This document shows positions 1-59,616 of a DNA stretch of 64,000 bases, piece by piece; the first letter of the stretch is position 1, and every line of letters begins with the position of its first letter. This DNA comes from Chiloscyllium plagiosum. Its lineage: Eukaryota. Under the pieces are notes generated by a model that worked only from the letters and a program-made list of their open reading frames with translations, did not search any database and had not been told where the DNA came from. Where the stretch lies: assembly GCF_004010195.1 (NCBI RefSeq), contig NC_057759.1:6518734-6582733 (forward strand), in the 5' to 3' direction. The position numbers and the translations under genes are program-made.

Positions 1-1123
1 TACAGCTGCGGCTGATCTCATCCCAGCCTCACTGCAGTTTCCTGCCCTCGCTCCCTTTAACACCTCACTGATTAACAATCTGTCTGTCCCCTCCTTCAAT
101 TTATTCAGTGTCCCGACATACACCCACATACTGGGAAGTGAATTCCCAGAGATTCCCACCCCTTCTGCCTTGGAGAGAAGCTATTTCTCAACATCTCTCA
201 TTTCAATCTGGCCCACCCCCTTCTCCTGAAACAATGACCCTCTCGTTCTAAATTGTCACACCTGAGGAAACATCCTCTCTGTCTCCTTTGTCAATCCCAC
301 CTCCTTTACCACCCTATATCCCTCAGTTGGATCTCCGTTATTCCTCTAAATTCCAGAGCATATTGGCCTTAACTGCTGAATCTCTCTTCCAATGACAAGC
401 CCCTCATCTCTGAACATGAAATGTACAAAATCACGCTAGATGGGATCTTGGATGTAGCTTACACATCTCAAAGTGAGTTAGTCATAGTTTCCGAGATGTC
501 TACAGCCCAGAAAAATGCCCGAGTCTGTGCTGGTCAGAAACAATAACCTCAATATTCTCTTATCCCATTTCCCCAGCACTTGGCTCCATAGCCTTGGCAT
601 CACGAGTACACATTTAAATCCTCCTTCAATGTGATGAAAGCTTCTGCCTCTCCCACCCTTACGTGCAGTGACTTCGAGGATGCACACCACCCTCTGGGTG
701 AACAAGATTTTCCTCACATCCCTTCAAAACCTCCTGGCCCTTACCTTCAATCCCTCCCCCACCTCCATCAAGCAGGGAAAGTTTCTTCCTGCCTCTCCTA
801 TCTTCATCCCTCATCATTTTATACATCCATCTCTTTCAATCTACCCTGCTGTAGGGACAACAATCCCAGTCTGTCCAACCTCTCTCAATCACTGAAACTC
901 TCCAGCCCCAAGGCAATATACTGATAATTCTCCCTGTGCACCCTCTCCCACTTCATTTAGATATGTACTGTTGGTAAAGTGCCTTTTCTTTTATTTACAG
1001 CTCACTCCAATAGTGCATCAGGGAGGAAACATACAAGTTATTTTGCAGTGAAAAAGAGGGCAGTTAATTTTTAATCAGCAGAGTTATGTTTTTAGTAAGT
1101 GGTTAATGTAAAGTCACCATTGT

Positions 1124-2100: not shown

Positions 2101-2525
2101 GGGTGCCTCATCTGGAGTTGATGACTGTTGTCAGGAACAAACAATCATCTGGTCCAAAACTGAAGACTGAGGTGAGGAGGAGTTTCTTCTTAGGGTTGCG
2201 TGTTGTTGGAACTCCTTGCCACAGAGAGCTGTGTGTGGGGAGAGGGAGTAGTTTTAAGGGTGGGATAGATAGATTCTTGATCAGTCGGGGAATTGAGAGT
2301 TACATGTTAAGTGCAGGAAAGTGAACATGAGGAATGGGGCATCAGTCACAATGCTATTGAATGGATGAGCAGACTCGAGAGGCCGAATGGCCTTCTCCTG
2401 TTCCTGTCTGTGATGGTCCTTCAGGGAATGAAATCTGACCTCATTACCCGCTCTGCTCTGCACGTGATTCCTAACCCTTTGCAAACTCTTCACTGCCTTG
2501 TGGCTGAGGAAGTTGATTGGTTCAG

Positions 2526-2599
2526 AATTACATCCACTTCCCACCTTGGCAAAGATGACCACATCCTGTTCAGACTACAGAGAAATAACATTTGTCAGA
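2526..2599 (+). CDS. Paralogous putative cytoplasmic exon with SxYxxI motif
   Basis: (E)LHPLPTLAKMTTSCSDYREITFVR followed by donor AGA|GTCAGT; duplicate of 6845-6888. The acceptor position is uncertain (after 2525 or after 2573). Confidence 0.45.
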
Positions 2600-2733
2600 G
2601 TCAGTTTTTGATTTGTTCTAATCATGTGCTTTGCCAAGACAAATTGGTCTGTATAATGACCCCACATATTCACAGCTCCTCCTGTACACTCTGATTGTCT
2701 TTCAGGCAAAGTTTATTATTCTCATCCATTTTC

Positions 2734-3418
2734 ATAGAGTCATGCAGCACGGAAACAGGCCCTTCAGCCCAACTCGCCCATGCTGACAAGGTTGCCCAAA
2801 CTCAACTAGTCCCATTTATCTGAATTTGGTGCATATTCCTCTGCACCTTTCTTATCCATGTACCTTTACAAATGTCTCTTACATGTAATTGTACCTGCCT
2901 CTACCACTTCCTCTGCAGCTCATTCCATATACTCGCTGCATTCAGTGTGATAAATTTGCCTCTCAGGCCCCTTTGAAATTTTTCCCCTCTCACCTTAAAC
3001 CTATGCCACTAGTTTTGGACACCCCTACATTGGGGAAAAGACTATATCTATTTACCTTCTCTGTGCCTCTCGTGATTTTATAACCTGTATAAGGTCACCC
3101 CTCAGCCTCCAATGCTCCAGGGGAGAAAAGCTCCCAGCTTATGAAGCTTCTGCTTATAACTCAAACCTTGCAACCTTGGTAACATCTTTGTTAATCTTTT
3201 CTCTAACCTTTCGAGCTCAACAACATCCTTTCTACAGCAGGTTGACCAGGACTGTACACAGTATTCTAAAAATGGTCTCACCAACATCCTGTACAGCTAT
3301 AACGTGATGCCCCAACTCCTGTCGTCAGTGCTCTGACCAGTGAAGGCAAGCATGCCAAACGCTTACTTCACCACAGTGTCAAGCTGCAATGCCACATTTA
3401 AGGAACTGTCTTCCTGCA
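2734..3418 (-). mobile_element. CR1 LINE 3' fragment
   Basis: Minus-strand ORF LVRPFLEYCVQSWS...LERLEKRLTKMLP and a CR1-type 3' tail. Confidence 0.85.
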
Positions 3419-4599
3419 NNNNNNNNNNNNNNNNNNNNNNNNNNNNNNNNNNNNNNNNNNNNNNNNNNNNNNNNNNNNNNNNNNNNNNNNNNNNNNNNNN
3501 NNNNNNNNNNNNNNNNNNNNNNNNNNNNNNNNNNNNNNNNNNNNNNNNNNNNNNNNNNNNNNNNNNNNNNNNNNNNNNNNNNNNNNNNNNNNNNNNNNNN
3601 NNNNNNNNNNNNNNNNNNNNNNNNNNNNNNNNNNNNNNNNNNNNNNNNNNNNNNNNNNNNNNNNNNNNNNNNNNNNNNNNNNNNNNNNNNNNNNNNNNNN
3701 NNNNNNNNNNNNNNNNNNNNNNNNNNNNNNNNNNNNNNNNNNNNNNNNNNNNNNNNNNNNNNNNNNNNNNNNNNNNNNNNNNNNNNNNNNNNNNNNNNNN
3801 NNNNNNNNNNNNNNNNNNNNNNNNNNNNNNNNNNNNNNNNNNNNNNNNNNNNNNNNNNNNNNNNNNNNNNNNNNNNNNNNNNNNNNNNNNNNNNNNNNNN
3901 NNNNNNNNNNNNNNNNNNNNNNNNNNNNNNNNNNNNNNNNNNNNNNNNNNNNNNNNNNNNNNNNNNNNNNNNNNNNNNNNNNNNNNNNNNNNNNNNNNNN
4001 NNNNNNNNNNNNNNNNNGTAAAAGTAACCAATGGGGTGAAAGGGGGGGGACTGAGAGATGCAGCTGGACAGCATAAATCAGAATGTAACCCTCAGATCGG
4101 GGTGCTTACTCATTAGGCACCCGTTCTTGCAAGTACGTATCAGTAAAATTCGCTGCTTCTGAAATTTATTAATATGCGAGTTTTGTTTCTCACACTCCCT
4201 AACTGCCAACTGAACCTGCCTGTTAACCTGAAGAGAATCCTGAACTCGGACTCCCAAGTCCCTTTGTGCTTCAGATTTCCGAAACCTTTCCCCATTTTCG
4301 GAAACAGTCTCTGCCTCTATTCTTCTAATCCCATTGCACACCCTCCCACACTGTCATCCATCTGCCAACCGAACCTTAATAGGATCCTGAACTCGGACTC
4401 ACCCCCGAGGACCTTGTTTGTGCTTCAGGCCTGGCAGCATCTGTCCAGAGACAGACAGAGAGAAAGCGGAGTCAACGTTTCGAGTCCGGGGCAGCCGTCC
4501 TTCGGGAGAGTGGCCTTTGGTCTTGATGTGCCGCCGCACAATTTCTTGTTCACTCCCACCTCTCTGTCTGTGTGTATATTTGTCATTATTATTGAGTTT

Positions 4600-4900
4600 G
4601 GCGAGTCCCGGAGCCGGCCCTGTTGATTCTCTCTCCTGAAAGGGTTGTCCCTTTAAAGAGCCTTTCCCCTGAAGCAGCTGCTAACGGTCACTTGGGGCAC
4701 GAGGCGGCCGTTAACCGCCATCTCGCGCGGGGCCTGAAGCTAAAATGGCGCCGGGGCCACGCGGGAAGGAAAAGCGCCGAGGGAGAGCGGACTGTGTCAA
4801 CATGTCCCGTTCCCGAGGGTCAGGATGGTGGTTATTGGGGGGTGAGGGGGGACAGGAGAGATTCCCCCTCCCAGTGAGGCATCTTGTACAAACCGCGAGG
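4600..4900 (+). promoter_or_regulatory. CpG-rich promoter-like island with YY1-type motifs
   Basis: Locally high GC and CpG; CGCCATCT near 4717 and AAAATGGCGCC at 4742-4752; donor-like G|GTGAGG at 4842. Confidence 0.5.
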
Positions 4901-5094
4901 TCTCTCTCCGTCTCCCTGTCTCTGTACATCTCTCTCTCTCTGTAACTGTTTGACTGTCCATGACTTGCTTTAACTCTCTGACCAGGTCGATTAATCTCGA
5001 TGACTGTGTGATTTTGTGTTTCTCTGTGTGTCTCTATGACTCTGCCCCTCTGTATATCTATGTCTCTCTGTTTCTCCCTGCGTCTCTATGATTT

Positions 5095-6344
5095 TGCCGA
5101 GAGGTGCAAGGGAGAAGCGAAGGACTTCTGGGAAGGTTTTAAGTGGGAAGTGCACCCAACTCCAGCTCCTCGAAAACCGCTGGAGCTGGATGGACTGAGG
5201 GGGAAATTGAGAGGATGTACAGGGAGGTGGTCATTCCCCAGACACAGTATAAGGACAGCTGGGTTACTGTCAGGGGGAGGAAAATGAACCGACGGTCAGG
5301 GCAGGGATCCCCTGTGGCCGTTCCCCTCAGCAATAAGTACAGTAGCACCTCGACTTATGAACTTAATCCATTCTGGGACCGGTTTGCGAACCGTAAAGTT
5401 CGCGAACTGAATCAATTTTTCCCATTGTTCGGATAGCGTAAGAATGCTTGGACGGCTGTTCACAGTGCACGCGCCAAAGACGAACTGAATGAGATCACGC
5501 AGGGCCCGAGAGCTTTTGCGTTCAACAAGCGCATAGCAAAGCAGAACAATGAAACCATATGGTCGCACACGGGAATTTTGCGTTTGTCCCTTCATTTGTA
5601 CCTTGAATTTTGTACGTACGTTGAAGCAAACCTTTACGTACAATCCTGTTCGTAAACTGATTTGTTCGTGAACGGGGTCGTTCGTATGTCGAGGCTCTAC
5701 TGTACACCATTTTGGATACTGTTGGTGGGGATAGCCTACCAGGGGAAAACCATAGTTGTCAGGTCTCTGGCACTGAGCCTGGCACTGTGGCTCAGAAGGG
5801 AAGAGCGGAAAATAGAAAAGCGCTACTGGTCGGGGACTCAATAGTTAGACGGATTAACAGGAGACTTTGTGGTCAGGAACAAGACTCCCGGAAGATATGT
5901 TGCCTCCCCAATGCCAGGGTCCGGGCTGTCGCCGTTTGGGTTTGCAAGATAATGAAGGGGGAGGGTGAGCAGCCAGAAATCGTGATACATATTGGCACCA
6001 GTGATATAGCCAGGAAAGGGATTGAGGGTCTGAAAAGTGACTACAGAGGGGTAGGTTGGAAGCTGCAGAGCAGGACGAGTAGATTAGTGATCTCGAGTTT
6101 GCTACTGGTGCCACAAGATAGTGAGATGAGGAACAGTCAGCGAATGCAGCTTAATACGTCTCTGCGAGGCTGGTGCAGGAGGGAGGGCTGCAGATACCTA
6201 GACCATTGGGATACCTTTTGGGGAAGCTGGGACCTGTACATGAAGGACAGGTTGCACCTGAACGGGCAGGGCAAAAATATCCCAGCTGGGAGATTTGCTT
6301 GTGTGATTTGGGAGGGTTTAAACGAGTAAGAAGGGGGGCAGGGG
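5095..6344 (+). mobile_element. CR1 LINE ORF1 region (SGNH/GDSL esterase domain), interrupted by a MITE
   Basis: ORF 5712-6329 has LLVGDSIVR...HIGTSDI...DRLHLN, the esterase blocks typical of CR1-clade ORF1. Confidence 0.85.
5340..5702. mobile_element. Tc1/mariner (pogo/Tigger-like) MITE, 363 bp
   Basis: TIRs CAGTAGCACCTCGACTTATGAAC and GTTCGTATGTCGAGGCTCTACTG (19/23 match); TA duplication at 5338-5339 and 5703-5704. Removal restores the CR1 frame SNKY|TILDTVGGD. Confidence 0.92.
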
Positions 6345-6844
6345 NNNNNNNNNNNNNNNNNNNNNNNNNNNNNNNNNNNNNNNNNNNNNNNNNNNNNNNN
6401 NNNNNNNNNNNNNNNNNNNNNNNNNNNNNNNNNNNNNNNNNNNNNNNNNNNNNNNNNNNNNNNNNNNNNNNNNNNNNNNNNNNNNNNNNNNNNNNNNNNN
6501 NNNNNNNNNNNNNNNNNNNNNNNNNNNNNNNNNNNNNNNNNNNNNNNNNNNNNNNNNNNNNNNNNNNNNNNNNNNNNNNNNNNNNNNNNNNNNNNNNNNN
6601 NNNNNNNNNNNNNNNNNNNNNNNNNNNNNNNNNNNNNNNNNNNNNNNNNNNNNNNNNNNNNNNNNNNNNNNNNNNNNNNNNNNNNNNNNNNNNNNNNNNN
6701 NNNNNNNNNNNNNNNNNNNNNNNNNNNNNNNNNNNNNNNNNNNNNNNNNNNNNNNNNNNNNNNNNNNNNNNNNNNNNNNNNNNNNNNNNNNNNNNNNNNN
6801 NNNNNNNNNNNNNNNNNNNNNNNNNNNNNNNNNNNNNNNNNNNN

Positions 6845-6888
6845 TGGCCACATTCTGTTCAGAGTACAGAGAAATAACATTTGTCAGG
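6845..6888 (+). CDS. Putative cytoplasmic exon (3' part; 5' end probably in the gap) with SxYxxI motif
   Basis: ATFCSEYREITFVR followed by donor AGG|GTCAGT in phase 0, matching the phase of the 7945 exon. Confidence 0.5.
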
Positions 6889-7019
6889 GTCAGTTTTAGG
6901 CTTGCTCCAAACACATGCCTTGCTAAGAGAAATTAGTCTGGAAAATGAACCCAAATAGTCACAGCTCCTGCTGTACACTGGTTGTCTTTCAGGCAAAGTT
7001 TGTTTTTCTCATCCATTTT

Positions 7020-7905
7020 CATAGAGTCATACAGCACGGATACAGGCCCTTTGGCCCAACTCGCCCATGCTGACAAGGTTGCCCAAACTCAACTAGTCCC
7101 ATTTGTTTGCATTTGGCCCATATCTCTCTAAACCTTTCTTACCCATGTACCTTTCCAAATGTCTTTTAAATGTTGTAATTGTACCTGCCTCTACCACTTC
7201 TTCTGGCAGCTCATTCCATATACGCACTGCCCTCTGTGTGAGAAATTTGCCTGTCAGGTCCCTTTTTAATCTTTCCCCTCTAACCTTAAACCTATGCCCA
7301 CTAGTTTTGGACACCCCTACGTTTGGGAAAAGACCATACCTATTTGCCTCTCGTGATTTTATAACATCCGTAAGGCCACCCCTCAGCCTCCAAAGCTCCA
7401 GGGGAGAAAAGCTCCCAGCTCCTGCAGCTTCTCCTTATAATTCAAACCCTGCAATCTTGGTAACATCTTTGTCAATCTTTTCTGTGCCCTTTCTAGCTGA
7501 AGAAACTTCTACAGCAGGCTGACCAGAATTGCACACAGTATTCCAAAAGTGGCCTCACCAACATCCTGTACAGCTGTAACATGATGCCCCAACTGCTGTC
7601 ATCAGAGCTCTATTCAGTGAAGGCAAGCATGCCAAACATCTTCACCACCGTGTCTAGCTGCAATGCCACATTCAAGGAACAATCAACCTTCACACCAAGG
7701 TCTCTTTGTTTGGAAACAGTCCCCAGACTTGTACTATGAACAGTATATGTCCTGCCCTGGTTTGCCTTACCAAAATGCAACACCTCGCATTTACCTAAAT
7801 TAAACTTCATCTGTTATTCCTCGACCCACTGGCCTAGCTGATCTAATGTCCATTATACTCTTAGATAACCTTCTTCTCTGTCTAAAATGCCACCAATGTT
7901 GGTCC
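7020..7905 (-). mobile_element. CR1 LINE 3' fragment (duplicate of the 2734-3418 insertion)
   Basis: Minus-strand ORFs KFNLGKCEVLHFGK and GHRFKVRGER...WNELPEEVVEA; same flanking junction as the 2734 copy. Confidence 0.88.
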
Positions 7906-7944
7906 TGCTCCTATCTACTACGTTTCTTGTTGACCTGTTTTCAG

Positions 7945-8076
7945 GCTGACCAAGCGGAACAGCAACCACCCTGCATCACTTACGCCAGCCTGTGGAACAC
8001 AGATACAAGAGGGGATGAGGAACCAGGTCAAGACAAAGAGGGAAACGTTTATGCCAACCTTCCACAGATGTTGTGA
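7945..8076 (+). CDS. Putative terminal coding exon of an ITIM-bearing receptor cytoplasmic tail
   Basis: Acceptor TTTCTTGTTGACCTGTTTTCAG, then the open phase-0 frame ADQAEQQPPCITYASLWNTDTRGDEEPGQDKEGNVYANLPQML-stop. ITYASL fits the ITIM consensus and NVYANL is a second YxxL. It is a non-repeat island between CR1 fragments. Confidence 0.65.
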   Translation, partial: ADQAEQQPPCITYASLWNTDTRGDEEPGQDKEGNVYANLPQML

Positions 8077-8519
8077 GACAGCACAGAAGAAAGCCTGTGA
8101 AACTTCACAAATCAATCAACAGCAAATCTATCTTCTCGCAAATAAGGAGGAAATGGAAGAGAAGGCAGAGCACTGTCATGTTTCTGTGACTTGGTTAGGC
8201 TTTGTCTCAGTTCACACAGCAAGATGTCAGTTCAAAAGATGGACTTGTCTTGAGAAACCATCTGGATAATGGTCTCTCCCACAACTCTCGGTGGGTCAAT
8301 TTATACGGCTGTAGCACGATCTAATTGTTGATGGCAGAGATTTAAGATTTTATGGTGTCCTTTCCTAACTTGAGCATCCATTTGATTTCCTGGTGAATGG
8401 GTCAAGGCAGACTAGACAATGAATTGTACATACTCTACATCTTTTATTTAAATTGTGGTGAGCTGGAAATAATTCAAGACAATAATTCCCTAGCCCTATC
8501 TTCATTGTCCTCCAACTTC

Positions 8520-9345
8520 ATCACATAAAATATACTTCCAGATCTCTTTTCATACCTCATACGGAATCTACCTCCACCACAATCCCAGGCTGCACAATCC
8601 AAATCCTAACAACTTTGAGAAAAGACATATCTCCTCATGTGACTCCCAGCTGTCTTGCCAGCAATCTTGAAATTGTGACCCCTAGTTACTGGCATACCAA
8701 CTTGTGGTAAAAAAAATTCTTCTTTCCCCTGTCAAAATTCTTCATAATTTTGAACACCTCCATAAGGTCCCTCTCTAAATCTTCTCTGCTTCAAGGAGAA
8801 GGAGCCTGATGTCACTAATTATTCCTTGTAGGTAAAATCCTTCATTTCTTCTATCATTCTAGTAAAACTCCCATGAACCCTCTCCAGAGCTTGAAGTTCC
8901 TTCCTTAAATAAAGTGCCCAGAACTGAACACAAATGTTACCTGACTAATGATTTGTAGAGGTATAGCATCACTTTCTCAGTTTTATACTCAATGCTTCTA
9001 TTTATAACTGCAAGAATCCTATAAACCTTCTTCACAACTGTTTCAGCTTGCCTGGCGACCTTGAGAGAATGATGTGCATGAACCCCAAGGTTCCTCTGCT
9101 CTAGTGCTCCCTACAAAAATGTACCATTGACCCTACATTGTTGCCATGTGTTTCTGGTAGCAAAATGCATTTCATTTCATTCCTCTGCATTGGAATTCTT
9201 TTGCCAGATTTCTACCCATTTGGCCAATTTGTCAATCTCCCTGTGAAGTCACTCAGCATCATCCTCACAATTCACTCTTCTCCCTGGGTTAGTATCAACT
9301 GTGAATTAGAGATTATAATCTCAACACCAAACTCCTAATCATTTT
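8520..9345 (-). mobile_element. Old CR1 LINE fragment
   Basis: Diverged similarity to the RT C-terminal region of other CR1 copies in the window (e.g. CCCAGAACTGAACACA). Confidence 0.65.
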
Positions 9346-9349
9346 ATAT

Positions 9350-10030
9350 AACAATGTAGTTATTAATGAGTACGTGTCAGATTCTTCTATGTGCATGTAA
9401 CTATTAATCTCTACCTGTTCGTTACCCATATGTGAATGGGATTTACCTGTCTGTTCCTGCTCTGTGAATTGAGACAGTTAATATTGACCTGTATTTGCCC
9501 GTTTCCCCTATGTGAATGTGAGAGTGTATTTACCATTCTGTCCCTGCTGTGTTTTGAGATTGTCAATATTAATCTGTGCCTGTCACTTTCTCCTATGTTA
9601 CTATGTGAATGTAATCACCAATATTTGCCTTTCAATCTCTGCCTTGAGAATATGTGAATTTACTTATCATTTGTACCTGTCAGTTCCTGTTTGGTGAATG
9701 TGAACACTGCAGGTACCAATATGTACCCGTGAGAATCTGCTCTGTGAATATGAGACTGTCATTGTCACAATGTACTTGTCAGTTTATGCTGTGTGAAACT
9801 GGGCGTGTAGTTATCATTCTGTTCCTGTCTTTGTGAATGAGAGTATAGTTATTAATCTGTCCCTGACAGATACTGAAATGCTAATGTGTCACTTAGAAAC
9901 CGACCAATGGAGATTAATAGTCACACATTTGCGTTGCGGTAACTGTGTTGTCATCATTTGTTTGTCTGTTTCTGCAAAATGAAAGTGTGTGTGTAGTTAT
10001 CAGCCTGTACTTATCAATTTCTACTCTTTC
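9350..10030 (-). repeat. Degenerate 47-49 bp tandem repeat (reverse orientation)
   Basis: Recurring TGTGAATGTGAG...TTATCAATCTGTACCTGTCAGTTTCTG variants; reverse complement of the 46-54 kb array. Confidence 0.8.
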
Positions 10031-10959
10031 GTATCTAAGTGGAAGCCAGTAATATTCTGTGTCTGTGTGATACGTTCTGTGATAGTTGTTATGAGGGTGT
10101 TGAGACTGGGTCTTAATCTTTTCTGCATTTTGTGATTTCTGTGTTGACTGTCAGGTCTGTCTTGGGGAGAGAGGAGCTAGGGTGATAGCGGAAGGGAAAC
10201 TGCTTTATTCTGAGAACCATTCTGAATCATGGTCACACATTTCCTGTTTGGGTAGAGAGTCTGGGATCACTGAGACATTTAGTTTCAATTTGTACCTAGA
10301 CATTGGTGTTTTTTCATGAAAGTGTATTTTATTCTGCATGTCAGTTCATTTCTGTATGATATTTTTTATACCAATATGCAACACCACAGCATGTCATCAG
10401 TTTTCTCACCAAAATCAGAATCACTGATATGGTACAGATCAGAAGCAGACCATTCATCCCCTTGTATATATACTGGGACATTCTCTAATGCATCAATTCT
10501 ACAGTATTTGTTGGGAATGTGAACTTCATCCCCTCATTGTCAGTGTCTATGTGGAAAGGACAATTTGACATCAGTTCTGTAGACATCTGACTTTTAATAA
10601 CTGTCGTCCTTGGTCGGACAGATCACGGTTGTTTTCAGTTCTGGGCACATTATTTAGGGAAGGATCCTCAAGTTCTTGAGAGGGTTCATTGGAGATTTAC
10701 TGGATTTCAATCACCTATGTTCAATTGTGGTTTGTGTCTGAGTGTAGCATAAACTCTGTAAATAAACTCTTTTCAATGATGCGTAACTGTATTGCATTTC
10801 AATCTGTTTATTTTTACATTGTGTGTGTGTGTGTGTATACATATATAGTAGACTTTATCAGGCACTGCTGGGCACTGTATATCCTCAGCTGTGATACGTG
10901 ATGTTGAGAGTCAATTCACATCTGGAAATAGAGGCCAAACTTTATTCTTTTCCTTTCAG

Positions 10960-11490
10960 CATCCAGTGGCTGAGTGAGAGTGAGTTTGCTCTTGTGCTGC
11001 CACTCTGTCTGTATCTCAGTTCATGTCTCCTGTAGTGAATGGGAAACAGCTGAAGTTCTTTAATTGTTAGTGCCTGTAGGAATCACGTGCAAGTGAAAAT
11101 GTAACACACTGCAACAGAAAAGATTCTGTGCTGTTCCTCAGTGTCAAGGTAGGAAAAGGAATGGACCTTTTGTATCTTGTATGGTGTGGAATCTAATAGA
11201 GAGTAATGATATAAAATGTTGGTCTTCAGAAAGCCATCAGTTTTTGTTTCAGTGCATAGTGATGTTCTTTTATGCATTTGGTGAAGTAAAAATCAATGTA
11301 AACTGAATCCATTTGCAACTAAATGAAAGGGTGACAAACAATTCAACTGCATTGGAGCTGACTGACCATAATGTTCCTTGTACAGAAAAGACAATTCTAT
11401 TTTCTGATGTCGACAGAACATTACCCTGCTCTGTCGTATGATGATGCACCATTAGCTGTACTGTTGCATTGCTCTATAGTAGGGAGGAGG
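10960..11490 (+). pseudogene. Decayed putative Ig-like exon and transmembrane exon
   Basis: Strong acceptor at 10959. Homologous to 29835-30056 plus 34672-34800, and (TM part) to 45667-45815 on the opposite strand. Contains several stops and frameshifts. Confidence 0.3.
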
Positions 11491-22839: not shown

Positions 22840-23482
<643 letters not shown>

Positions 23483-24610: not shown

Positions 24611-24991
24611 TCACTTGGAGCTGGTGTACTTGGTCACCGCCTTTGTGCCCTCCGACACGGCGTGCTTGGCCAGCTCCCCGGGCAGCAGCAGCCGCACGGC
24701 GGTCTGGATCTCCCGGGAGCTGATGGTGCTGCGCTTGTTGTAATGGGCCAGGCGGGAAGCCTCCCCCGCGATGCGCTCGAAAATATCGTTGACGAACGAG
24801 TTCATGATGCTCATGGCCTTGGAGGAGATGCCGGTGTCGGGGTGAACCTGCTTCATCACTTTGTAGATGTAGATGGAGTAACTTTCTTTCCTGGTCCGCC
24901 TCCTTTTCTTGCCGCCCTTCGCTGGCGCCTTCTTGATGATTTTCTTAGCGCCCTTCTTGGAAGCTTGCTGTGCTTTCTTCTCATCAGCCAT
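24611..24991 (-). CDS. H2B: Replication-dependent histone H2B, 126 aa, with divergent N-terminal tail
   Basis: [126 protein letters not shown]; ATG at 24991. Confidence 0.98.
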
Positions 24992-25156
24992 AGCGCCGCT
25001 CACTCTCAGACATAGAATAAGGGAAAGCGAGCTCGGAGCTCCCTTTTATAGACTGACGACGTCATCAATGCTAATGAGGGATGGAGGAAAGCCTTGGTCT
25101 GATTGGGTAGCTTACAAGGACTCGTTCCCAAACACTCCAGTCTCTGTGATTGGGTA
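24992..25156 (-). promoter_or_regulatory. H2B promoter (TATA, CRE-like, octamer-like, two CCAAT)
   Basis: TATAAAA at 25044-25050 (-), TGACGACGTCA at 25054-25064, ATGCTAAT at 25068-25075, GATTGG near 25101 and 25148. The same motifs occur in the same order at 56168-56266. Confidence 0.8.
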
Positions 25157-45785: not shown

Positions 45786-47365
45786 CTGTAGCAGGAACAT
45801 TGTGGTCAGTCGGCTACAATACAATTTATTAGTTTGTTCCCCTTTCCTTTTGATACTACCAAAGGAATGTAACACCTCTCCATTTCTCAACATTATTCAC
45901 AAAAGTATGTAGCTATGCATTGAGGAAAAACTGATGACATCCTGAAGAACAGCCCATGGTATCATTCCTGCCAGTTCGAGTCTGCACTACAGGAGTTGGA
46001 AAACCCTTTAATTTTCCATTACACAATCCATGACACAAAACAAGTGCACTGAGCAGAAACTAACAGGTACATATTGATAAGTGCACTCACACATTCACAT
46101 AGCTGAAATTGACAGGCAAAGATTAATATCTATATTCAGAGACACAAAGCAGAAGCTGGCATGTACAGTTTGATGACTATACTTATACATTTACAGAGCA
46201 GTCAGATTGGTAACTATATTCTGATGTTCACATTGCAGAAAAGTTCATGTACAGATTGCTAACTGCACACTGTAACACGTATAGGAGAAATCGACAAGGA
46301 GAAATTGAAGACAATATTTACATATCAGAACTGGCAGGTACAAATTGGTAAGCGCATTCACATATTCACAACACAGAAGCTGATAGGATAAATGCACTCA
46401 CACATTCACATGGCAGACACTGAGAGTTATAGATTAATAACTGCACACTCAAATACACAGAGCTAAAACTGATCGGAACAAATTAGTAAATGCACCCTGA
46501 CATTCACATTGTAGTGACTAACCGAGGTAGTTAATGATAGAGAAACATTTTTTATCAAACTATCATATCCACAAAGCAGAAACTGTCAGGAACAGATTAG
46601 CAATAACACTCAGTTTTATATTGCTTAAAGCACAGCAGAATCTGACAAGTATAGATCGATAACAATACTCAGTTTGCCAAACAAAGCCTGACAACTACAC
46701 TCTCATATTCAACTCATATTCACATGGCAGAAACAGTTACAGATATCTACTCTCACCCATTCACATTGCAGTAACTGGGACAGATTGATGATGACACTCA
46801 CTCATTCATATGACAGAAATTATCAGCTCCATAACTAACATCACATATAGATGTTGGAGAAGCTGACAGCTAGAGACTGATAATTATACTCTCATTCACA
46901 TTGCAGAAACTGCACTCACATATTCACATAGAAACTGACAGGTACAGATTTATAACCACAGCTACACATTCATATTGCAATAACTGATAGGGATAGATTG
47001 GCCCTCCCTTTGAGATATTCTAAAAAAAAGTAAGAAAACAATTTCATTTATTCAAATTACCAATACAGCTTCCTACAACATCAAGTGATATACTTGATCA
47101 GGTCAGAGTTTGATACACCTTTGTCTTTTTTAACATCTCTAACACCTCCTCTTTTGGCATGTGCACTGATATCAAATATTTTTCAAGATATCAATATATA
47201 TTTCCCCAAGTTTCCTAGCCTCCACTCCTATGTCTCCAGGCATAGAACATATTCATATTACAAAAAATAGCAGATTCAGATTGATAAATGCATTCATACA
47301 TTATCAAATCAGAAACTTGTGGGGAGTGATTAATAACTAATCATTTTATATTTAATAATTCATCT

Positions 47366-47524
47366 TTAAAGTTTGGGAGAAGATTTGTAGCTCGGGTGCT
47401 CGTTGTTGTGGTTCTGTTCGCCGAGCTGGGAATTTGTGTTGCAGACGTTTTGTCCCCTGTCTGGGTGACATCCTCAGTGCTTGGGAGCCTCCTGTGAAGC
47501 GCTTCTGTGATCTTTTCCTCCGGC
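47366..47524 (-). mobile_element. Penelope terminal fragment with degenerate hammerhead
   Basis: Flanked by AATAATTCATCT (47354-47365 and 47525-47536); minus strand CTGAGGA...AAAACGTC. Confidence 0.75.
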
Positions 47525-47564
47525 AATAATTCATCTAGCAGAAACTTTCAGGGAGAGTCTTTTA

Positions 47565-47912
47565 GTAAGAATTAGAATCCATACAGTTTCAAAACAGAAT
47601 GTTCAGCCTGGCAAGTCTACACCGACCCTCTGAAGATTATCTCAACCAGAGCCATTCCCTTATCACTCTACATTTATTCCACACTAATGCACCTAACCCA
47701 CACATCTCTGAACACGATGGGCAATATAGAATGGCCAATTCACCTAACTTGTTCTTTGGACTGTGGGATGAAACCAGGGCACCCAGAGGGAATCCACACA
47801 GACACGGGGAGTATGTGCAAACTCCACGCAGACACTCGCCCGAGGCTGGAATCGAATCCAAGTCCCTGGCGCTGTGAGGCAACAGAGCCAACCATTGAGC
47901 CACTGTGCCGCA
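47565..47912 (-). mobile_element. tRNA-derived SINE
   Basis: Reverse complement of the SINE head (GCGGCACAGTGGCTCAATGGTTGGC) and body. Confidence 0.88.
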
Positions 47913-50900
47913 CTATACAAGAATATTCATACTGCAGAAACTGACTGGTACAGATTGATTACAACACTTGTATGTTCACAGAACGGGAACTGGTAGTTAC
48001 AGATTGATAACTACATTTTCATATTCACTGCAGAAAATGACAGGTATGATTTAATGAATATATTTGCATTTTTACAAGCAGAAACATTCAGGGATATATT
48101 AATAGCTGCACTCATACATTCACATATCTGAAATTGACTGTTACAGATCAAAAATTTGACTTGCTTATTGTTGTAGCAGAAACTGAGACACACAGATTGA
48201 TACTTGCACTCACATTCAGACAGCAGAAACTGACAGGCACAGATGGATAACTACACTCACTTGGAGGAAACTGACAAGAATTTTCCCACAGCATAACCTA
48301 ACAGGTAAAAATTTATTACTACACTTCCAAGTTCACAGAGGGATAAACACACTGTCATGTACAGTTTGATAATGATACTCAAACATAACAGATCAGAATC
48401 TCACAGGTACATATTAGGAACTACACTCTCTCATTCACCTCGCAGAAATTGAAAGATGCAGACTGATAACTACACCGACACATTCATAGCACAAACTGAT
48501 AGGAACAGGTGGACAACTACCCTCATTCATTTATGAAGCAGAAACTAACAGGTACAGATGATAACCACCACTTACATATTCACAGGACAGAAAGTTACTG
48601 TCATAAATTCATAACTGGACTAACACATTCACATTACAGAAACTGACGTACATTTTGATAAAGGCATTCGAACGTTACCAAACCAGAAACTTACAGCTAC
48701 ATATTCATGTCAACGCTGTCATAGACAGACAGCAGAAACTCACAGGGGTAGGTTAGGAAATACATATACGCATTCACATAGTGGAAATTGACATGTCCAT
48801 ATTAATGACTATATTTGGATGTTCACAAAGCAAAGACAGATTGATAACTGCACCATATTCACAGAGCAAAATCTGACAGGTATATTTCTGTATGTACATG
48901 TCAGAAACTGACAGGTTTACAAATTGATAACCTTATTCACATATTCACAACACCAATACTGACAAGGAATGATTGATATATGCATTCACAGATTCACCAA
49001 GCAGAAACTGACTGACTGGTACAAATAAACAACTAAACTCACATGTTGAAATAGCAGAAACTGAAAGGTACAGACTGATAGCAACACTCTCTCATTCTCA
49101 TAACTCATACTGCCAGATATTGGTTGAGATGTACACTCTCAGTCACATAGCAAAAACTACCAGGTATAATTTAATTACTTCCTCGGATATATGGAGGAGA
49201 CAATGACAGGGACAGATTGGAAATTACACTCTTCTAGTCACATAACAGAAAATCACAGGTACAGTTTGATAACAACACTTCCACTTTCACTTAACATAAA
49301 CTCGCCAATTATGTTTGATAAGTACACTCAATTTCACACAGAATCTGATAGGTCGAGATTGAAAACTGCACTCTCATATTGACTTGGCAGAAACAGATAG
49401 GCATAGATTCAAACCTGTGCCCACATATTCACGTTGACGAAACTGACTGCTAAACTTCTGTAATATGCAGCGAAAATTTTCTGACAAGTATAATTTGAAA
49501 AACACACTCAAATATTCATAGGGCAGAATGTATTGATCATAACACTGTCTCACCGAGCATAAACTGACAGGGAAATATTGATAAATACACTCACATATTC
49601 ACATTGCAGAGACTGACAGGAAGCATTGCTTCCGAATTTCTCATATTTACACAGTGGAATTGGTCAGGCATAGACTGACATTTTCACACACATTTTCAGC
49701 CAGAAAAACTGACAGGTATGGATTGGTAACTACATTTACAGATTCTGACAGGGACAGATTAAACTAAACTCTTAGAAAAACTCAAAGCAGAGTCTGATAG
49801 GTACAGAATGATAAATGCATTTACACATTCACAAAGCCAAAAACTGACAGTTACTCATTGATAATTAAACACTCTTATTTAGAGAACAGAAACTAATGAG
49901 GAAAGATTGAGCAATTTACTTTCACATTGCAAACACTGACTGCAATAGATTGATAAATACACCCACAGACACTGAGCAGAAACTGTTAGGTACAGATTGA
50001 TAACTGCACGCCTGTATGCATATAGCAGAAAGTGACATGGAAAAATTGATAACTACATTCACACATTCTCATTGCAGCATCTGACAGCAACACATTGATT
50101 GACAATCTCTTGTTCACATGTCAGAATTGACAGAGACTGAAAATGACAGTCACATTCACACAGCAAAATCTGACAGGTACAGATGGATAACAGCACTCTC
50201 ACATGCACACTGACTGAAACTGGCAGGCATATGTTGATAACTGCATTCATCTATTAACAAACCAGAAACTGAACAGGTACAGGTTATTACTGACACTCTC
50301 CGATTAACAGAGCAGAAACTGACAGGGATAGGCTGCTCAATAAACTCACACATTCACATTGTAGAGACTGACCAATATGTATTTATAACTGTATTTTGAC
50401 ATTTACAAGTAGAGATGGATAACTCCATTCAAATATTCCTACAGGAAAAATTGACGGGTCCAAAATGATAGCTATATTTACATATCCATGAAACAGAAAC
50501 TGGCAGGAACAAATTGAAAAATAAATTCAGATTGCAGAAATAGGGTTATGGGCTGGGTTATGTGCTGTTAGCAGGAAGATGGGAATAAATGGCCATTTGT
50601 TGTCTTTGGGTTGGAATGGACAAGATAGGCCAAATGGCCCTCTTATGTGCAATGTTATTTCAATGGATCTATAGTTCTATATCAATCTGTCGCTGTGAGT
50701 CACTGCTAGTTGAATACATAAGTAATTTAAGCAAGGCTTAGAAGGACAGAATGTGAGAGTGTGGTTGTTATTCACAAAGTAGGAATTGACATGAATAGTT
50801 CAATAACTAAACTCATATTCACAGACCCACTTGCATTGGATAGTCCCATTCATGGAGCTGTACAGTTATTGGTTAGTTTCTGGACCTCAGTCAATTGGTA

Positions 50901-52325
50901 TTGAATTAACAAAAAGAAACATCACTAGACATGGAGCAAGAGTAGAATCAGACATGTTGTTCTGTTTGAATTCCTGGCTTTAAAAACAATATCCTCATGA
51001 TTATTAACAGAATGTTGTGTTGATCAGCTAAAGATGGTCAAACTTGGCTGATGGTGATTTACAGGAGATTTCACTTCTGTCTTCCTCCAGGCAAATACTT
51101 GAAGGATCAAGACAATGTAATATTCCCTCGGTACAGAGCCAAGTGTGACTAGCTGCTTCTAACAAACAGCAGTTATTTTACTGCTATCAGAGCTAAGAGC
51201 ATTTTTTCCACTGTCAGAGTGAATTGAGTCAGCTACACATTGAGCTCAGTTTGAGAGAGAGATGTTCAAACAATTGACAAAATATCATTTTGTTTCTTTC
51301 TCACAGTTCACAATGCACATGTGTCCAGTTTGAACACATTCACCATTCACAGCTCATTGATATTTGCACAATTTTGAAACTGGAATGTCTGAATTCTTGT
51401 CCAAAATATGCACTCACGAACTGAAACAGATCTGCCTACAATCACCCACATAACAAGTATCACATAACGAATCACACCCTCACAGAGAATATTAGTGGCT
51501 GCCAGAGGGATACATCCCTTTACCAAATAGAAACTGACAAGCATGCATTGATACCTTTGTTCACTCGTTCACTTTGCAGAAACAAGCAAAAACGCATTAA
51601 TGATGACACATGAATTAACAAGGTAGTTACTTACACATGCACACACACATTACCTTTTGCAGGCACTGTCATGGATAGATTCATAACACTCAGATGTTCG
51701 CATGACAGAAAGTGACACACATTCTCTTATTTTCATTGCACATACCAACAGGAATGGGTTGACAACTACACTTTCATATTCAGATATCAGAAAGTATCAC
51801 GTACAGACGAATAACTGTGCTCAGTGTTCACCTATCAGCAAGTGGCATTACAGATCAATAACCAAACTCAACTGCTGTCAGGTAGAAACTGAAGGTGATA
51901 CTCTCATTCCCAAAGATAAAAGAAAAACTGACAGGTGCGTTAGGATAGCGAAAATTACATTCAGATGTCGGAAACTGACACGGACAGATAGGTAAGTGCA
52001 CTCACACTTTTACACAATAGTAACTGTCCTAGAAAGATTAATAAGTGCACTCCCATATTCACAATGCAGAAACTGACAGGTACAAGTTGATAACACTCCC
52101 ATTTCACAGAACATGAACTGACAGGTACAGTTTGATAACTAAACTCACATTCACACAGCAGAAACTGAGAGGGCAGATTTATAACAACAGTCACATACTT
52201 GAATTGTAATAACTGACAGGGACACATTAATAACAACATTTACATGTTCATGTGACAAGAATGGACAGGTACAGGTCGATAAATGAATTTGCATATCCAC
52301 AATGCAGGAAATGAGAGAGTGAGAC

Positions 52326-53295
52326 TGTGGCTTTAACAGGTTTTTGTCTTTTTGTTCTTGAAGAGCAAATTTAAGGCAGAGACATCGAGCCACGAGAGCA
52401 AACAGTTTCATGCCAAATGGGCATCTTTACAGAAAGCTGAAGACTCATCAACAGAAATACTTCGTGTTTCAGTAGGAGACCTTGAGTTTATTGTTTTTGG
52501 AGAAATTTAAGAACAAAAATTACAGACTGTTTAGATGAAGCTTACTATCGCAGCCATTCAATTTGCAAATTACATACATGGCAGGGCGAGAGAACCTAAT
52601 TGCCAAGGTGTTGTTGCGACTTTGATGAAAAAAGATGGAAGCATTACATAGCAGGAAAAAGTGGGCTGTTGTAGTGAGTGTTTGCATGCTTACAGTCAAT
52701 GAAATGTGTACGTATTGTTTACTAATCGTGTAAGGCTAAGCAATTTTTAAAAATTGGGCCATCTCTGTATATTGATCAGTTCATTTTAAGAGGGGTGGAA
52801 GGTTTGATGATATTGTGGCTTGAAGATATTTATTTTGTTCTTTCTTTCTTGTTGAAGAGAGGTTTTATGGCAGAAGTGTCAAGAAGTCTGCACTAGAGTA
52901 AACAGTTTGAGGCTCCTTTTAAAGTTGGAACAACAGAAGCAGCCTGAATGGGTGTGGTCAAGCTCTCACAGGATGACATTTTTAGTTTTGGCTTTCAGCA
53001 AAATTGTCGGTCTCTTGAAGACAGGAAAGCTATTTTTTTCCCTCTCAGTTACAGTCAGAAGCTGCAGATTCTCTTTCTGCTACTGGAGTCGGATGTGAGA
53101 CTATATATTTTATCGAATTTGTCTTTTGCCAAGGATGTTTATGGGATATTACTGTATTGGAACAGTTAATTAGGAAGTGATACTGGATCCATTATTCTGT
53201 TAAGTATTCCAGTAGAGTTAAGTTATTCAAATTTCTTCTTTATTGCGTTGTATGTTAACTACTGTGGACAGGATAAAATGCTCCTTTTAAAGCTA
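52326..53295 (+). mobile_element. Probable LTR inserted in the tandem array
   Basis: Abrupt interruption of the array; 53130-53240 resembles 20915-21020 of the LTR at 20584. Ends are not resolved. Confidence 0.5.
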
Positions 53296-54966
53296 CATAA
53301 TCATTCTAACTGATAACTGCCCTCATATTCACATAACAGAAACAGACTGATAGATAACTACACTGCCATATGAACACCAGAGAAACATTCATGAACATAT
53401 TAAGCCAAATTTAGATATTCATAAAGCAGAACATGTCAGGTAAAGATTGACCATGTTTATAACACAGAAACTGACAAGGTGAGATTGATAAAAGCATTCA
53501 CACAGACTTGTAGTAGAGACTGATTGGGATATACTGTTCATTACACAGACATATTCACTGAGCAGAAACTGACAGGTACAGATTGATAATGCCAGCCAAA
53601 ATTCACATAACAGAAATGAACATAAAGACATGGATAGCAAAACCCCGATTTACATAGCAGAAACTGTCAGGGACCAATTAGTAAATACACTGTCACATTC
53701 GCAGAGCAAACGCTGACAGGGACAGATTGATAACTACAATTACACATTCTCACAGCAGAGACCTTAAGGATAGACTGATAATTACACAAACATAATGACT
53801 GTGGAAGAACAGACAGGTACAGATTGATGACTGGACTGCCATATTCGCACATCACAACCTGTGTGGAAAAGTTTAACTAAACTGAGATACTCACAAAACA
53901 GAAGCTGACAGGTACATGTTGATAACCACGTTGACATATTCCCAACAGAGAAATGGATAAGGTAATATTGATAAAAGCACTCCCACATTCACATAGCAGA
54001 GACTGATACTGGGAGACTGAAAGTTACACAGACAAATTCATTGAGCAGAAAGGAACGGGTACAGATTGATAAAGCCAGTCAAACAGTCTCATAGCAAAGA
54101 CTGATAGGCACTGCAATAGTCAATACCCTTACACATTCTCACATCAGAGCCATTCTGGGATTGTGATAATTATACTAACGTAATCACTGTGGAAGAATGG
54201 ACAGGTACAGACTGATGACTACAATCACACATCCAGATGGCAGAAACTGACAGGGACAGATTGTGGGAGAGTAATAATCATTCACCTCCCGAAAGCTCAC
54301 ATGGGCAGATGAAAAACCACACTCACGTTTTACACAGCCAATAACGAGAGGTAAACTCACCCTTAACCAGCCTGAAATTCTGAACAACACTATCTCACAG
54401 TGTAAGCAGGGAATCACAGTGATAAAACAAATAACACAAGATTGTCACAATTAAAATTCGCTCAAGTATCCTGTTCAAAATAATCCTTAAATAATAGTGA
54501 CCAAATAAAGTTCAGAGAAAATCCACATAGGAAAGTTCATAATTTTAAAAATTCTGCTCGAAACTGAAATGCACCAAATAATATCGATTCTAATGTCGTG
54601 CAAAGTAAGATTTCAGGAACTGAAATATTGGCAGGAGGCTGCTGACACTGATTGAGGAGTTAAACAGTCAGGGAGTAAAATTCATGTTGTCAGCAGAAAG
54701 CAAAAGGCACAAGTTACAGAACATCAGTTTCCTTTAGTCATTGAAGTAATCAGAGTAGAACTCTTCGAGGAGAAAGTGAGGTCTGCAGATGCTGGAGATC
54801 AAAGTTGAAACTTTATTGCTGGAACAGCACAGCAGGCCAGGCAGCACCCAGGGAACACTGACAATGATACATACACTGGCAGCTATTCTGAGTAATGTAT
54901 GAATACTTTGGCTGATACTCATTGGAGATTTGAAGAAGAATAAGGGAAAGGATAACTGAAGGGAGT

Positions 54967-56164: not shown

Positions 56165-56318
56165 CTAACCAATCAGAGTGATGTTACCGTGCTTAGAATC
56201 TAGCCAATCAGGAACTAGACTTTCCCCATCCCTCATTAGCATTGCTGACGTCGTCAGTCTATAAAAGGGAGCTCCGAGCCCGCTATCCCTTATTCTGTGT
56301 CTGAGAGTGAGCGGCGCT
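56165..56318 (+). promoter_or_regulatory. H2B copy 2 promoter
   Basis: CCAATCAG twice, ATTAGCAT at 56235-56242, TGACGTCGTCA at 56246-56256, TATAAAA at 56260-56266. Confidence 0.8.
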
Positions 56319-56699
56319 ATGGCTGATGAGAAGAAAGCACAGCAAGCTTCCAAGAAGGGCGCGAAGAAAATCATCAAGAAGGCGCCAGCGAAGGGCGGCA
56401 AGAAGAGGAAGCGTTCCAGGAAAGAAAGTTACGCCATCTACATCTACAAAGTGATGAAGCAAGTTCACCCCGACACCGGCATCTCCTCCAAGGCCATGAG
56501 CATCATGAACTCGTTCGTCAAAGATATTTTCGAGCGCATCGCGGGGGAGGCTTCCCGCCTGGCCCATTACAACAAGCGCAGCACCATCAGCTCCCGGGAG
56601 ATCCAGACCGCCGTGCGGCTGCTGCTGCCCGGGGAGCTGGCCAAGCACGCCGTGTCGGAGGGCACAAAGGCGGTGACCAAGTACACCAGCTCCAAGTGA
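56319..56699 (+). CDS. H2B: Replication-dependent histone H2B copy 2, 126 aa
   Basis: Near-identical to copy 1; ATG 56319, TGA 56697-56699. Differences are [10 protein letters not shown] and FVKDIF. Confidence 0.97.
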
Positions 56700-59324: not shown

Positions 59325-59554
59325 TTGGCGGGCTTTTCAAATTGGAAAGAAGGCGGTTGATGGTTTGGAGCCGGGACTTTCCGCCTTCCTCCCCGTGTCC
59401 TCCCCGGATTGGGGAATTGGAACAACATTAGGAGGGGCTGGACAATGGGACCAATCAGAAACGGCCGCCCCCACCATTCCTCCCGAAGGTATAAGAGACC
59501 GCGATGTGGGCGGAGTGTAGCATTCTCTCTGAAAGTGTTTGAGAGATTGTGATC
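59325..59554 (+). promoter_or_regulatory. H2A copy 2 promoter
   Basis: TTGGCGGGCTTTTCAA, GATTGG and CCAATCAG boxes, TATAAGAG at 59490; reverse-complement homologue of 23230-23482. Confidence 0.8.
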
Positions 59555-59616
59555 ATGACTGGAAGAGGAGGAAAGGGCAGTGGGAAAGCTCGCTCCAAGG
59601 CGAAGTCTCGGTCGTC
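59555..59616 (+). CDS. H2A: Histone H2A copy 2, 5' part only (runs into an assembly gap)
   Basis: MTGRGGKGSGKARSKAKSRS followed by N's; upstream promoter is homologous to that of the first H2A. Confidence 0.85.

What the first reader, a model, noticed from the sequence alone, without database searches (positions are those of the whole stretch)
6845..8076. Hidden 3' end of an inhibitory-type immune receptor with three tyrosine motifs
Seen: two non-repeat islands flank a CR1-filled interval. The first reads ...FCSEYREITFVR and ends at AGG|GTCAGT. The second starts after a pyrimidine-rich ...TTTTCAG and reads ADQAEQQPPCITYASLWNTDTRGDEEPGQDKEGNVYANLPQML-stop. Both junctions are phase 0, so they splice in frame. 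Known: the ITIM consensus is (S/I/V/L)xYxx(I/V/L), which SEYREI and ITYASL match; paired motifs about 20-25 aa apart near the C-terminus are typical of Siglec/LILR/SIRP/CD300/NITR-type inhibitory receptors. Inference: this is the tail of an ITIM receptor, possibly from a poorly described chondrichthyan family lying beside a histone cluster. The ectodomain is not identifiable in this window.
Basis: partly seen in the sequence, partly recalled or inferred. Interest (0 to 1): 0.85.

Follow-up and report, generated by a model that had tools for sequence, protein, structure and literature searches.

The report
Dead copy of shark Fc-receptor-like gene
The second piece matches the last exon of a shark immune receptor resembling mammalian antibody (Fc) receptors, but here it lies in one of about 40 duplicated, mostly broken copies and is likely dead, and the first piece is intron in the intact gene; the intact family matters because a recent review still says sharks lack such receptors.

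Summary
Half right. 7945-8076 matches the terminal exon of a five-Ig, ITIM-bearing shark receptor of the Fc-receptor-like (FcRL) type. The intact gene lies 4 Mb away on the same scaffold and is already in RefSeq as 'PECAM-like' (XP_043539740); relatives in other sharks and a ray are labelled FCRL. 6845-6888 is not its penultimate exon: it lies in that gene's last intron, its motif is in 0 of 191 proteins, and no 6888->7945 joint appeared in three contig runs. One contig joins 7945 to a cryptic donor at 7699 instead. Neither island is unique: they have 46 and 42 matches, mostly on this 8-Mb scaffold, as intron-containing duplicated blocks. The last exon is open in 7 of 30 duplicates and diverges like intron, so the block looks neutrally decaying. 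No Ig or membrane exon lies within 60 kb upstream, though a gap abuts island 1. Verdict: likely a 5'-truncated pseudogene of an annotated but little-studied shark FcRL cluster. The intact genes align domain for domain with FCRL4/5 and FcgammaRI and are candidate shark antibody receptors (untested).

The parts
6845..6888 (+). Island 1: part of the last intron of the FcRL-type gene; not an exon in any protein examined; directly follows an assembly gap
   Evidence: Homologous stretch lies at C50:2504150-2504110, inside the intact gene's last intron; motif in 0 of 191 proteins; no joint to 7945
6889..7944 (+). Rest of the last intron, carrying a minus-strand CR1-type LINE fragment (about 7019-7900) that the intact gene and the copies share
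   Evidence: Collinear with the intact gene at 78.5% over 6855-8113; matches other LINE copies in the window; broken frames resembling an RT C-terminus (by eye; no Pfam hit)
7699..7700 (+). Cryptic donor inside the LINE fragment, joined to the 7945 acceptor in one contig
   Evidence: Joint 7697->7943, GT..AG with cut +2, 1 contig, depth 7, run X1 (kind 'RNA?' is a guess); in-frame stop 15 codons upstream
7945..8076 (+). Terminal coding exon homologue, still open (43 codons + TGA), with one ITIM (ITYASL) and a terminal YxN motif
   Evidence: 66% identity to P0001 612-655 and 72% to P0024; same acceptor and phase as the intact gene's last exon
8077..10529 (+). Duplicated 3' flank; AATAAA at 8908; about 900 bases (8114-9015) have no counterpart in the intact gene
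1001..1032 (+). Homologue of the true penultimate exon, belonging to a second, truncated copy (alpha); its donor reads AC instead of GT
   Evidence: Alignment to the intact gene's 32-nt exon
2119..3406 (+). Last intron of copy alpha, with the twin of island 1; ends at a gap, with no last exon of its own in the assembly
   Evidence: 85% to 6845-7680; collinear with the intact gene
4195..5087 (+). Junction segment between copies alpha and beta, shared with two sister modules elsewhere on the scaffold
   Evidence: 93.6% to the module at C50 4.47 Mb and 96.8% to the module at C50 1.29 Mb
6345..6844 (.). 500-N assembly gap that hides whatever lies upstream of island 1

Best explanation
6845-8076 is the last intron and terminal exon of a DNA-level duplicate of a shark Fc-receptor-like gene; it is one of about 40 such blocks, mostly on one 8-Mb scaffold, and is likely a 5'-truncated pseudogene decaying neutrally. 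Shown: the intact gene (P0001, C50:2531147-2502959, minus strand) has two leader exons, five Ig exons, a membrane exon, five short cytoplasmic exons and this last exon. Island 1 falls in its last intron. The copies keep introns and the same LINE insertion, so they arose by segmental duplication, not retroposition. Inferred: the copies are unconstrained; the open frame here is a chance survivor; the intact 7945 acceptor captures stray transcripts through cryptic donors, with no receptor product. How the intact receptor would work (inferred from the established ITIM and SH2 rules of FCRL-type receptors, not tested): ligand binding to the Ig domains leads to tyrosine phosphorylation, the two conserved ITIMs (LxYSVV in an upstream exon, IxYATL in this exon) recruit SHP-1/SHP-2 and damp activation, and the terminal YxN would bind a Grb2-type adaptor. 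It is probably expressed on B cells.
For: Exon map of the intact gene. Island 1 is intronic there and its motif is in 0 of 191 proteins. Copy numbers 46, 42 and 40 for last exon, island 1 and Ig5 exon. Last exon open in 8 of 31 places examined, 7 of 30 without the intact gene, against 12-24% expected under neutral decay. Its divergence is 0.093 against an intron median of 0.090, with pN/pS 0.75 inside the 0.61-1.18 range of non-coding frames (22 copies), and 1.12 against a null median of 0.88 when each variant is counted once (21 copies). True penultimate exon keeps GT in 4 of 29 copies. Ig5 exon is open in 7 of 30 loci, and only 2 of those keep both cysteines. Three of the six other copies with N-terminal Ig exons were read in full and all three are broken; the other three show stops in matched stretches. 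No leader, Ig or membrane exon in the window or within 60 kb upstream; the nearest is a broken Ig4 at -72 kb. The one joint seen at 7945 uses a cryptic LINE donor with a stop upstream.
Against: The 500-N gap directly upstream could hide about 20 kb of exons; nothing I ran spans it. This copy's last exon is open and keeps both motifs. Runs X1 and X2 (guessed RNA) cover the stretch, and X1 shows two GT-AG joints, so the locus may be transcribed. Island 1 is less diverged than its surroundings: lowest of 47 windows, where it sits at the query edge, and matched by 6 of 59 windows in the fairer. It has conserved AGs that would give a phase 1-to-0 exon like the true one. The copies are related, so counts are not independent events.
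Confidence: 0.8

Rival explanations
1. One reading: island 1 has been recruited as a new penultimate exon (47 or 26 nt, phase 1 to 0) in the duplicates, replacing the true exon whose donor is dead, and gives a tail with an extra tyrosine motif.
For: AG kept at -20 and +1 in 94% of 31 copies, both phase-compatible. GT kept in 27 of 32. Low divergence. No stop variant in the last 20 codons and pN/pS 0.46 when all copies are counted. 7 of 9 consensus donor matches. True exon's donor lost in 25 of 29 copies.
Against: With variants counted once, pN/pS is 0.79 (15 codons) and 0.66 (20 codons), reached by 34% and 14% of non-coding windows; the joint 'low ratio and no stop' test gives 6% and 2.5%, but the island was chosen for being stop-free. 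27 of 32 GT retention is what about 8% per-base change gives. The exon it would feed is itself decaying. No joint. No protein carries it.
Confidence: 0.07
2. A complete, functional paralogue with the normal exon plan is hidden in the assembly gap; 7945-8076 is its real last exon and island 1 is simply intron.
For: Open exon with both motifs; the gap size is nominal; the locus may be transcribed; a related species has a second intact gene of this subtype (P0024).
Against: In the sister module at 4.47 Mb the same junction is followed directly by a broken Ig4 and a frameshifted Ig5, with no leader or Ig1-3. The exon is only 72% identical to P0024, while the Ig5 domains of P0001 and its counterparts in two close species are 94-97% identical. 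The spliced contig does not come from a normal upstream exon.
Confidence: 0.08
3. The fragment is transcribed as a non-coding RNA with some regulatory role over the intact genes.
For: Coverage across 7565-11200 and two GT-AG joints (7699->7945, 9712->10960) in X1.
Against: Single contigs at depth 3-7; run kind is a guess; no sequence constraint in the 3' flank (0.097-0.100); no evidence of any function.
Confidence: 0.05

Closest known systems
[quoted passage not shown]
   Same: Same last exon, acceptor and phase; same (I/V)xYATL-type and YxN motifs; same scaffold; shared introns and LINE insertion.
   Different: The window copy shows no leader, Ig or membrane exon in the assembly and is about 84% identical in this exon; no model contains island 1.
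Mammalian FCRL4, FCRL5 and FcgammaRI (PDB 9mbz, 9loc, 8din)
   Same: Top seven structure-sequence hits of P0001 (E 2e-49 to 2e-16), aligned collinearly from the first domain; Ig-TM-ITIM layout; two-exon leader.
   Different: Second leader exon is 30 nt, not 21; the membrane-proximal domain groups with amphibian, turtle and bird rather than mammalian domains; Ig binding untested; marker genes of the tetrapod locus not found on this scaffold.
Xenopus XFL family (Guselnikov et al. 2008, PMC2413239; passages read)
   Same: Lineage-specific expansion of FcR-type genes with varied domain numbers, fragments and birth-and-death turnover.
   Different: Here the expanded subtype is mostly 5'-truncated dead blocks mixed with histone genes; I did not look for activating (charged-TM) members.
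PECAM1 (CD31)
   Same: The automatic name of the intact gene; C2-type Ig domains and paired ITIMs (recalled).
   Different: No PECAM1 chain among the best 60 of 218 PDB hits, down to E 3.5e-4; five domains in FcR order. PECAM1 itself was not available for the tree.

Membership tests
FcR/FCRL family (intact gene P0001) | Ectodomain built from D1-D5-type Ig domains in FcR order | tested here: met
   Collinear alignment to FCRL5, FCRL4 and FcgammaRI. Quick tree of 138 domains: shark d2 with tetrapod second-type domains (SH-aLRT 96), d3 with third-type (83), last domain with caecilian, kiwi and turtle last domains (94); d1 and d4 unresolved. Reference names are automatic RefSeq labels; PECAM1 absent; 97 columns only.
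FcR/FCRL family (intact gene P0001) | Signal peptide split over two exons (PMC2413239) | tested here: met
   40-nt plus 30-nt coding exons in P0001's gene; 31 plus 30 in P0181's gene.
FcR/FCRL family (intact gene P0001) | Second leader exon of 21 bp (mammalian FCRL1-6 and FcgammaRI; only a fraction of Xenopus XFL genes, PMC2413239) | tested here: not met
   30 nt in both shark genes mapped. The paper shows the rule is not universal, so this separates the shark genes from the mammalian subfamily, not from the family.
FcR/FCRL family (intact gene P0001) | One phase-1 exon per Ig domain; type I membrane protein with tyrosine motifs over several short cytoplasmic exons | tested here: met
   motifs conserved across sharks.
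FcR/FCRL family (intact gene P0001) | Linkage to CD2/SLAM genes, IGSF9, DUSP23, TAGLN2 (PMC2413239); VANGL2 and ARHGEF11 (recalled) | tested here: inconclusive
   No hit on C50 for V-set (150 scored of 1319 candidates), Strabismus, RGS-like, Calponin or DSPc. Each search is a floor, and IGSF9 was not searched.
FcR/FCRL family (intact gene P0001) | Binds immunoglobulin (shown for FCRL4 and FCRL5 only, per PMC4016189) | not testable with these tools
   Needs a binding assay.
Functional FCRL-type gene (window copy) | Leader, Ig and membrane exons upstream of the tail | tested here: inconclusive
   None in the window or within 60 kb upstream, but a gap abuts the fragment.
Functional FCRL-type gene (duplicate subfamily) | Purifying selection on the last exon | tested here: not met
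PECAM1 | Best sequence match to PECAM1 domains; six Ig domains (recalled) | tested here: not met
   Five domains; no PECAM1 among the best 60 PDB hits.
Siglec / CD300 / SIRP / NITR | N-terminal V-set domain (recalled) | tested here: not met
   No stretch of P0001 or P0181 passes as V-set on its own; Ig_2 and Ig_3 dominate; none of these families is among the best 60 PDB hits.
LILR / KIR (leukocyte receptor complex) | Closest similarity to LRC-type C2 domains | tested here: not met
   KIR3DL1 at E 3e-4 against 2e-49 for FCRL5.

The most novel reading that the evidence does not exclude
The intact genes of this scaffold (P0001, P0181 and more than a dozen related loci) are true FcRL orthologues and include the uncloned antibody receptor of sharks: a B-cell receptor whose first three domains bind IgM, IgW or IgNAR and signal through ITIMs. 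This would place Fc-receptor feedback at the origin of jawed vertebrates rather than in bony fish, with the roughly 40 dead blocks as debris of rapid turnover.
Probability: 0.2. Interest if true: 0.8.

Novelty: new member of a known kind. Interest (0 to 1): 0.38.

Why it matters
The reported stretch is ordinary: a likely dead duplicate, with one wrongly called exon. The family behind it is worth noting. Akula et al. 2014 (PMC4016189) and a 2026 review (PMC13337447) state that FcRL molecules are lacking in cartilaginous fish, and the review asks how sharks manage antibody-dependent functions. Yet an FcRL-type cluster with conserved ITIMs occurs across sharks and a ray, partly misnamed 'PECAM-like'. 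It supplies concrete candidates for an Ig-binding test. The claim of absence is already contradicted in passing by RefSeq names and by a 2024 single-cell paper (PMC11372145), which limits the surprise.

Tried and rejected
Protein search with the 43-aa exon alone found nothing although relatives at 66-72% exist, so short-query blanks from that tool carry no weight. A search for short annotated models of the duplicates gave 3 proteins of 47 candidates, none with island 1. Run index: no holder on record as RNA. Raw single-cell run X11 laid 0 reads from about 6% of the run: no test. AlphaFold model of P0001 from 7 sequences had mean pLDDT 40, so no fold search was run. Five synteny-marker searches found nothing on C50. 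The careful domain tree did not finish; only the quick tree is used. An 80-105-codon open frame upstream of island 1 in about 14 of 31 copies was considered as a longer hidden exon and rejected: over 60 codons there are 17 stop variants, 20 of 27 indels break the frame, and pN/pS is 0.83. Retroposition rejected: introns and the LINE are retained. Assembly artefact rejected for the two in-window copies: they differ by 15%. Literature: eight searches returned no paper describing this cluster; the library lacks most subscription journals. I recall a 2021 Immunogenetics paper (Wang, Belosevic, Stafford) reporting two FCRL-related genes in elephant shark; it was not held, so that rests on recall only.

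Full report
1. Observation. The sequence, translations and splice dinucleotides are as reported. Island 1 starts at the first base after a 500-N gap and has an 85% twin at 2556-3406. Neither island is single-copy. The window is G000:C50:6518734-6582733; 7900-8460 has 46 matches and 6845-7020 has 42, mostly on C50, an 8.08-Mb scaffold. The similarity covers the whole block, intron, LINE fragment and 3' flank included, and extends 15-25 kb upstream in four other copies. An ITIM-like hexamer is common by chance: 248 in the window's six frames, 20 with a donor-like site in frame within 10 codons.

2. Finding the gene. Upstream of one copy lay a frameshifted Ig exon with 40 matches in the genome. 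Of 30 such loci read, 7 are open with both splice sites and 2 keep both cysteines. One of them is 100% identical to RefSeq XP_043539740.1 (P0001, 655 aa, 'PECAM-like', Chiloscyllium plagiosum, on a contig of the same length as C50). P0001 ends in the peptide of island 2 (66% identity). Its gene spans C50:2531147-2502959 on the minus strand: two leader exons (40 and 30 coding nt), five Ig exons, a membrane exon, five short cytoplasmic exons and the last exon. The exon before the last is a 32-nt, phase 1-to-0 exon. The homologue of island 1 lies inside the 2.5-kb last intron. The short penultimate exon recurs in a distant paralogue, P0181, and the YREI motif is in 0 of 191 proteins held. The real upstream ITIM (LxYSVV type) is two exons before the last; it, the (I/V)xYATL motif and the terminal YxN are conserved in most full-length shark relatives aligned.

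3. What the window holds. There are two partial copies. Copy alpha runs from about 5.7 kb upstream of the window to the gap at 3419 and has cytoplasmic exons only; its penultimate exon at 1001-1032 has lost the donor. Copy beta is 6845-10529. Between them are a junction segment shared at 94-97% with two sister modules, a LINE piece and the gap. In the sister module at 4.47 Mb the junction is followed directly by a broken Ig4 and a frameshifted Ig5, with no leader or first three domains. No Ig or membrane exon was found in the window, the 20 kb downstream or the first 60 kb upstream; a broken Ig4 of another copy lies at -72 kb. What the gap hides is unknown.

4. Selection. Of the 46 matches, 31 lay in fetched DNA and spanned the exon: 8 are open, counting the intact gene and this copy. 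Seven of 30 duplicates (23%) compares with 12-24% in a neutral simulation at intron rates. In 22 copies spanning both islands the exon diverges 0.093 against an intron median of 0.090, with 11 stop variants and pN/pS 0.75, inside the range of shifted frames and intron (0.61-1.18); it does have fewer indels than the LINE part of the intron (0.38 against 1.1 per 100 nt per copy), the same as part of the 3' flank. Counting each variant once in 21 copies (two rows overlap) gives 1.12 against a null median of 0.88. The true penultimate exon keeps GT in 4 of 29 copies. Three further copies with N-terminal exons were read in full and are all broken.

5. Island 1 is less diverged than nearby intron: 0.065 against a median of 0.112, with 6 of 59 windows as low (31 copies; the window copy dropped for its Ns). 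Two upstream AGs are kept in 94% of copies and would give 47- or 26-nt exons with the same phases as the true exon. The last 20 codons have no stop variant. The coding signal is not significant once variants are counted once (34th and 14th percentile), and the downstream exon is decaying, but recruitment as a new exon is not excluded.

6. Transcripts. No listed run is on record as RNA. On 6845-11200, contigs of X1, X2 and X6 gave no 6888->7945 joint. X1 has one contig, with no mismatches in the listed piece, joining a donor at 7699 inside the LINE fragment to 7945, an unspliced contig across the acceptor, and a GT-AG joint 9712->10960. X11 laid no read. The 7699 frame has a stop 15 codons upstream. 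So the acceptor seems usable and the locus may be weakly transcribed, without evidence of a receptor product.

7. Family. P0001's best PDB matches are FCRL5 (2e-49), FCRL4 and FcgammaRI, aligned from the first domain on; PECAM1 is not among the best 60 of 218. Named relatives occur in Hemiscyllium, Stegostoma, Mustelus, Heptranchias, Heterodontus, Scyliorhinus, Carcharodon and the ray Hemitrygon; the more distant hits that I named are FCRL-labelled proteins of squirrel, cats, caecilian, kiwi, turtle and sturgeon, and one frog 'hemicentin-like' protein (20 of 150 looked up). In a quick domain tree shark d2, d3 and the last domain group with the matching tetrapod types (96, 83, 94), while d1 and d4 are unresolved. 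The leader is split as in the family, but its second exon is 30 nt, not 21. Synteny is inconclusive. A second subtype (P0181, six Ig domains) matches more than a dozen places on C50, many with open exons; I mapped one exon by exon and checked one more, whose best exon matches had no stops. Conclusion: works like, and is probably a member of, the FcR/FCRL family; not assignable to a mammalian gene.

8. Mechanism. Shown: duplication of intron-containing blocks, loss of 5' exons in copies that can be read, decay at neutral rates. Inferred: this copy is dead. For the intact receptor, established knowledge of ITIM receptors predicts phosphatase recruitment by the two ITIMs and adaptor binding at YxN (SH2 preferences recalled, not tested). 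[quoted passage not shown] They share a number block with histone loci and carry names also given to C50 members. That they belong to this cluster is my inference; I could not map the ids.

9. Literature. PMC4016189 (passages): no FcRL homologue found in shark genomes. PMC13337447 (passages): repeats this in 2026. PMC11372145 (passages, and searches of the 4 supplementary files held, one cut when stored): names fcgr1a-like, fcrl3 and fcrl5 in bamboo shark B cells in one sentence; the part cut off may hold more. PMC2413239 (passages): family features. PMC7916592 (passages): suggests PECAM1 and FCRL5 are related. PMC6795676 (passages): cites a 1988 paper titled 'Fc receptor for shark IgM', seen only as a reference entry. 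Eight searches found no description of this cluster. A recalled 2021 paper on elephant-shark FCRL genes was not available. The scan's own notes had nothing nearby or alike.

10. Verdict. Observation partly confirmed; interpretation partly supported. Likely a pseudogene fragment of an annotated FcRL-type family (0.8). Interest 0.38, resting on the family rather than on this copy.

Noticed in passing
G000:C50, about 0.47-7.08 Mb (for example L125-L134): A second FcRL subtype (P0181/P0031 type, six or seven Ig domains) matches more than a dozen places on the scaffold, many exons open; probably the larger living part of the cluster.
   Followed up: partly
window 22840-23289 (-), 24611-25045 (-), 56265-56699 (+), 59543-59890 (+); L021:4463-5218 (+): Histone H2A and H2B genes (first two confirmed by Pfam), a gapped H2A and an upstream H1-like frame, interleaved with the receptor fragments. 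Human FCGR1A also sits among histone genes (recalled, not tested).
   Followed up: partly
L031:677-1015 (-), L035:290-625 (+), L034:8813-9259 (+): Two copies of a broken retroelement with an RNase H domain (over the Pfam cut-off) and a downstream frame with a weak EGF-like match (under the cut-off), an unusual cargo; observed only.
   Followed up: partly
window 5340-5702: Short element with inverted ends and TA on both sides, inserted in a LINE ORF1 (GDSL-like); looks like a Tc1/mariner-type MITE (by eye).
   Followed up: no
window 9400-10100 and 46000-54300: Degenerate tandem repeat of about 45-49 bases on opposite strands; the first is part of the receptor block's 3' flank, the second is an 8-kb array of unknown origin.
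   Followed up: partly
   Followed up: no
window 9712 to 10960: A GT-AG joint in one X1 contig in the 3' flank, beyond the AATAAA at 8908; suggests read-through transcription.
   Followed up: no
G000:C24:7431800-7451799 (L095, L122): One decayed copy of the block lies on a different, 56-Mb contig.
   Followed up: partly
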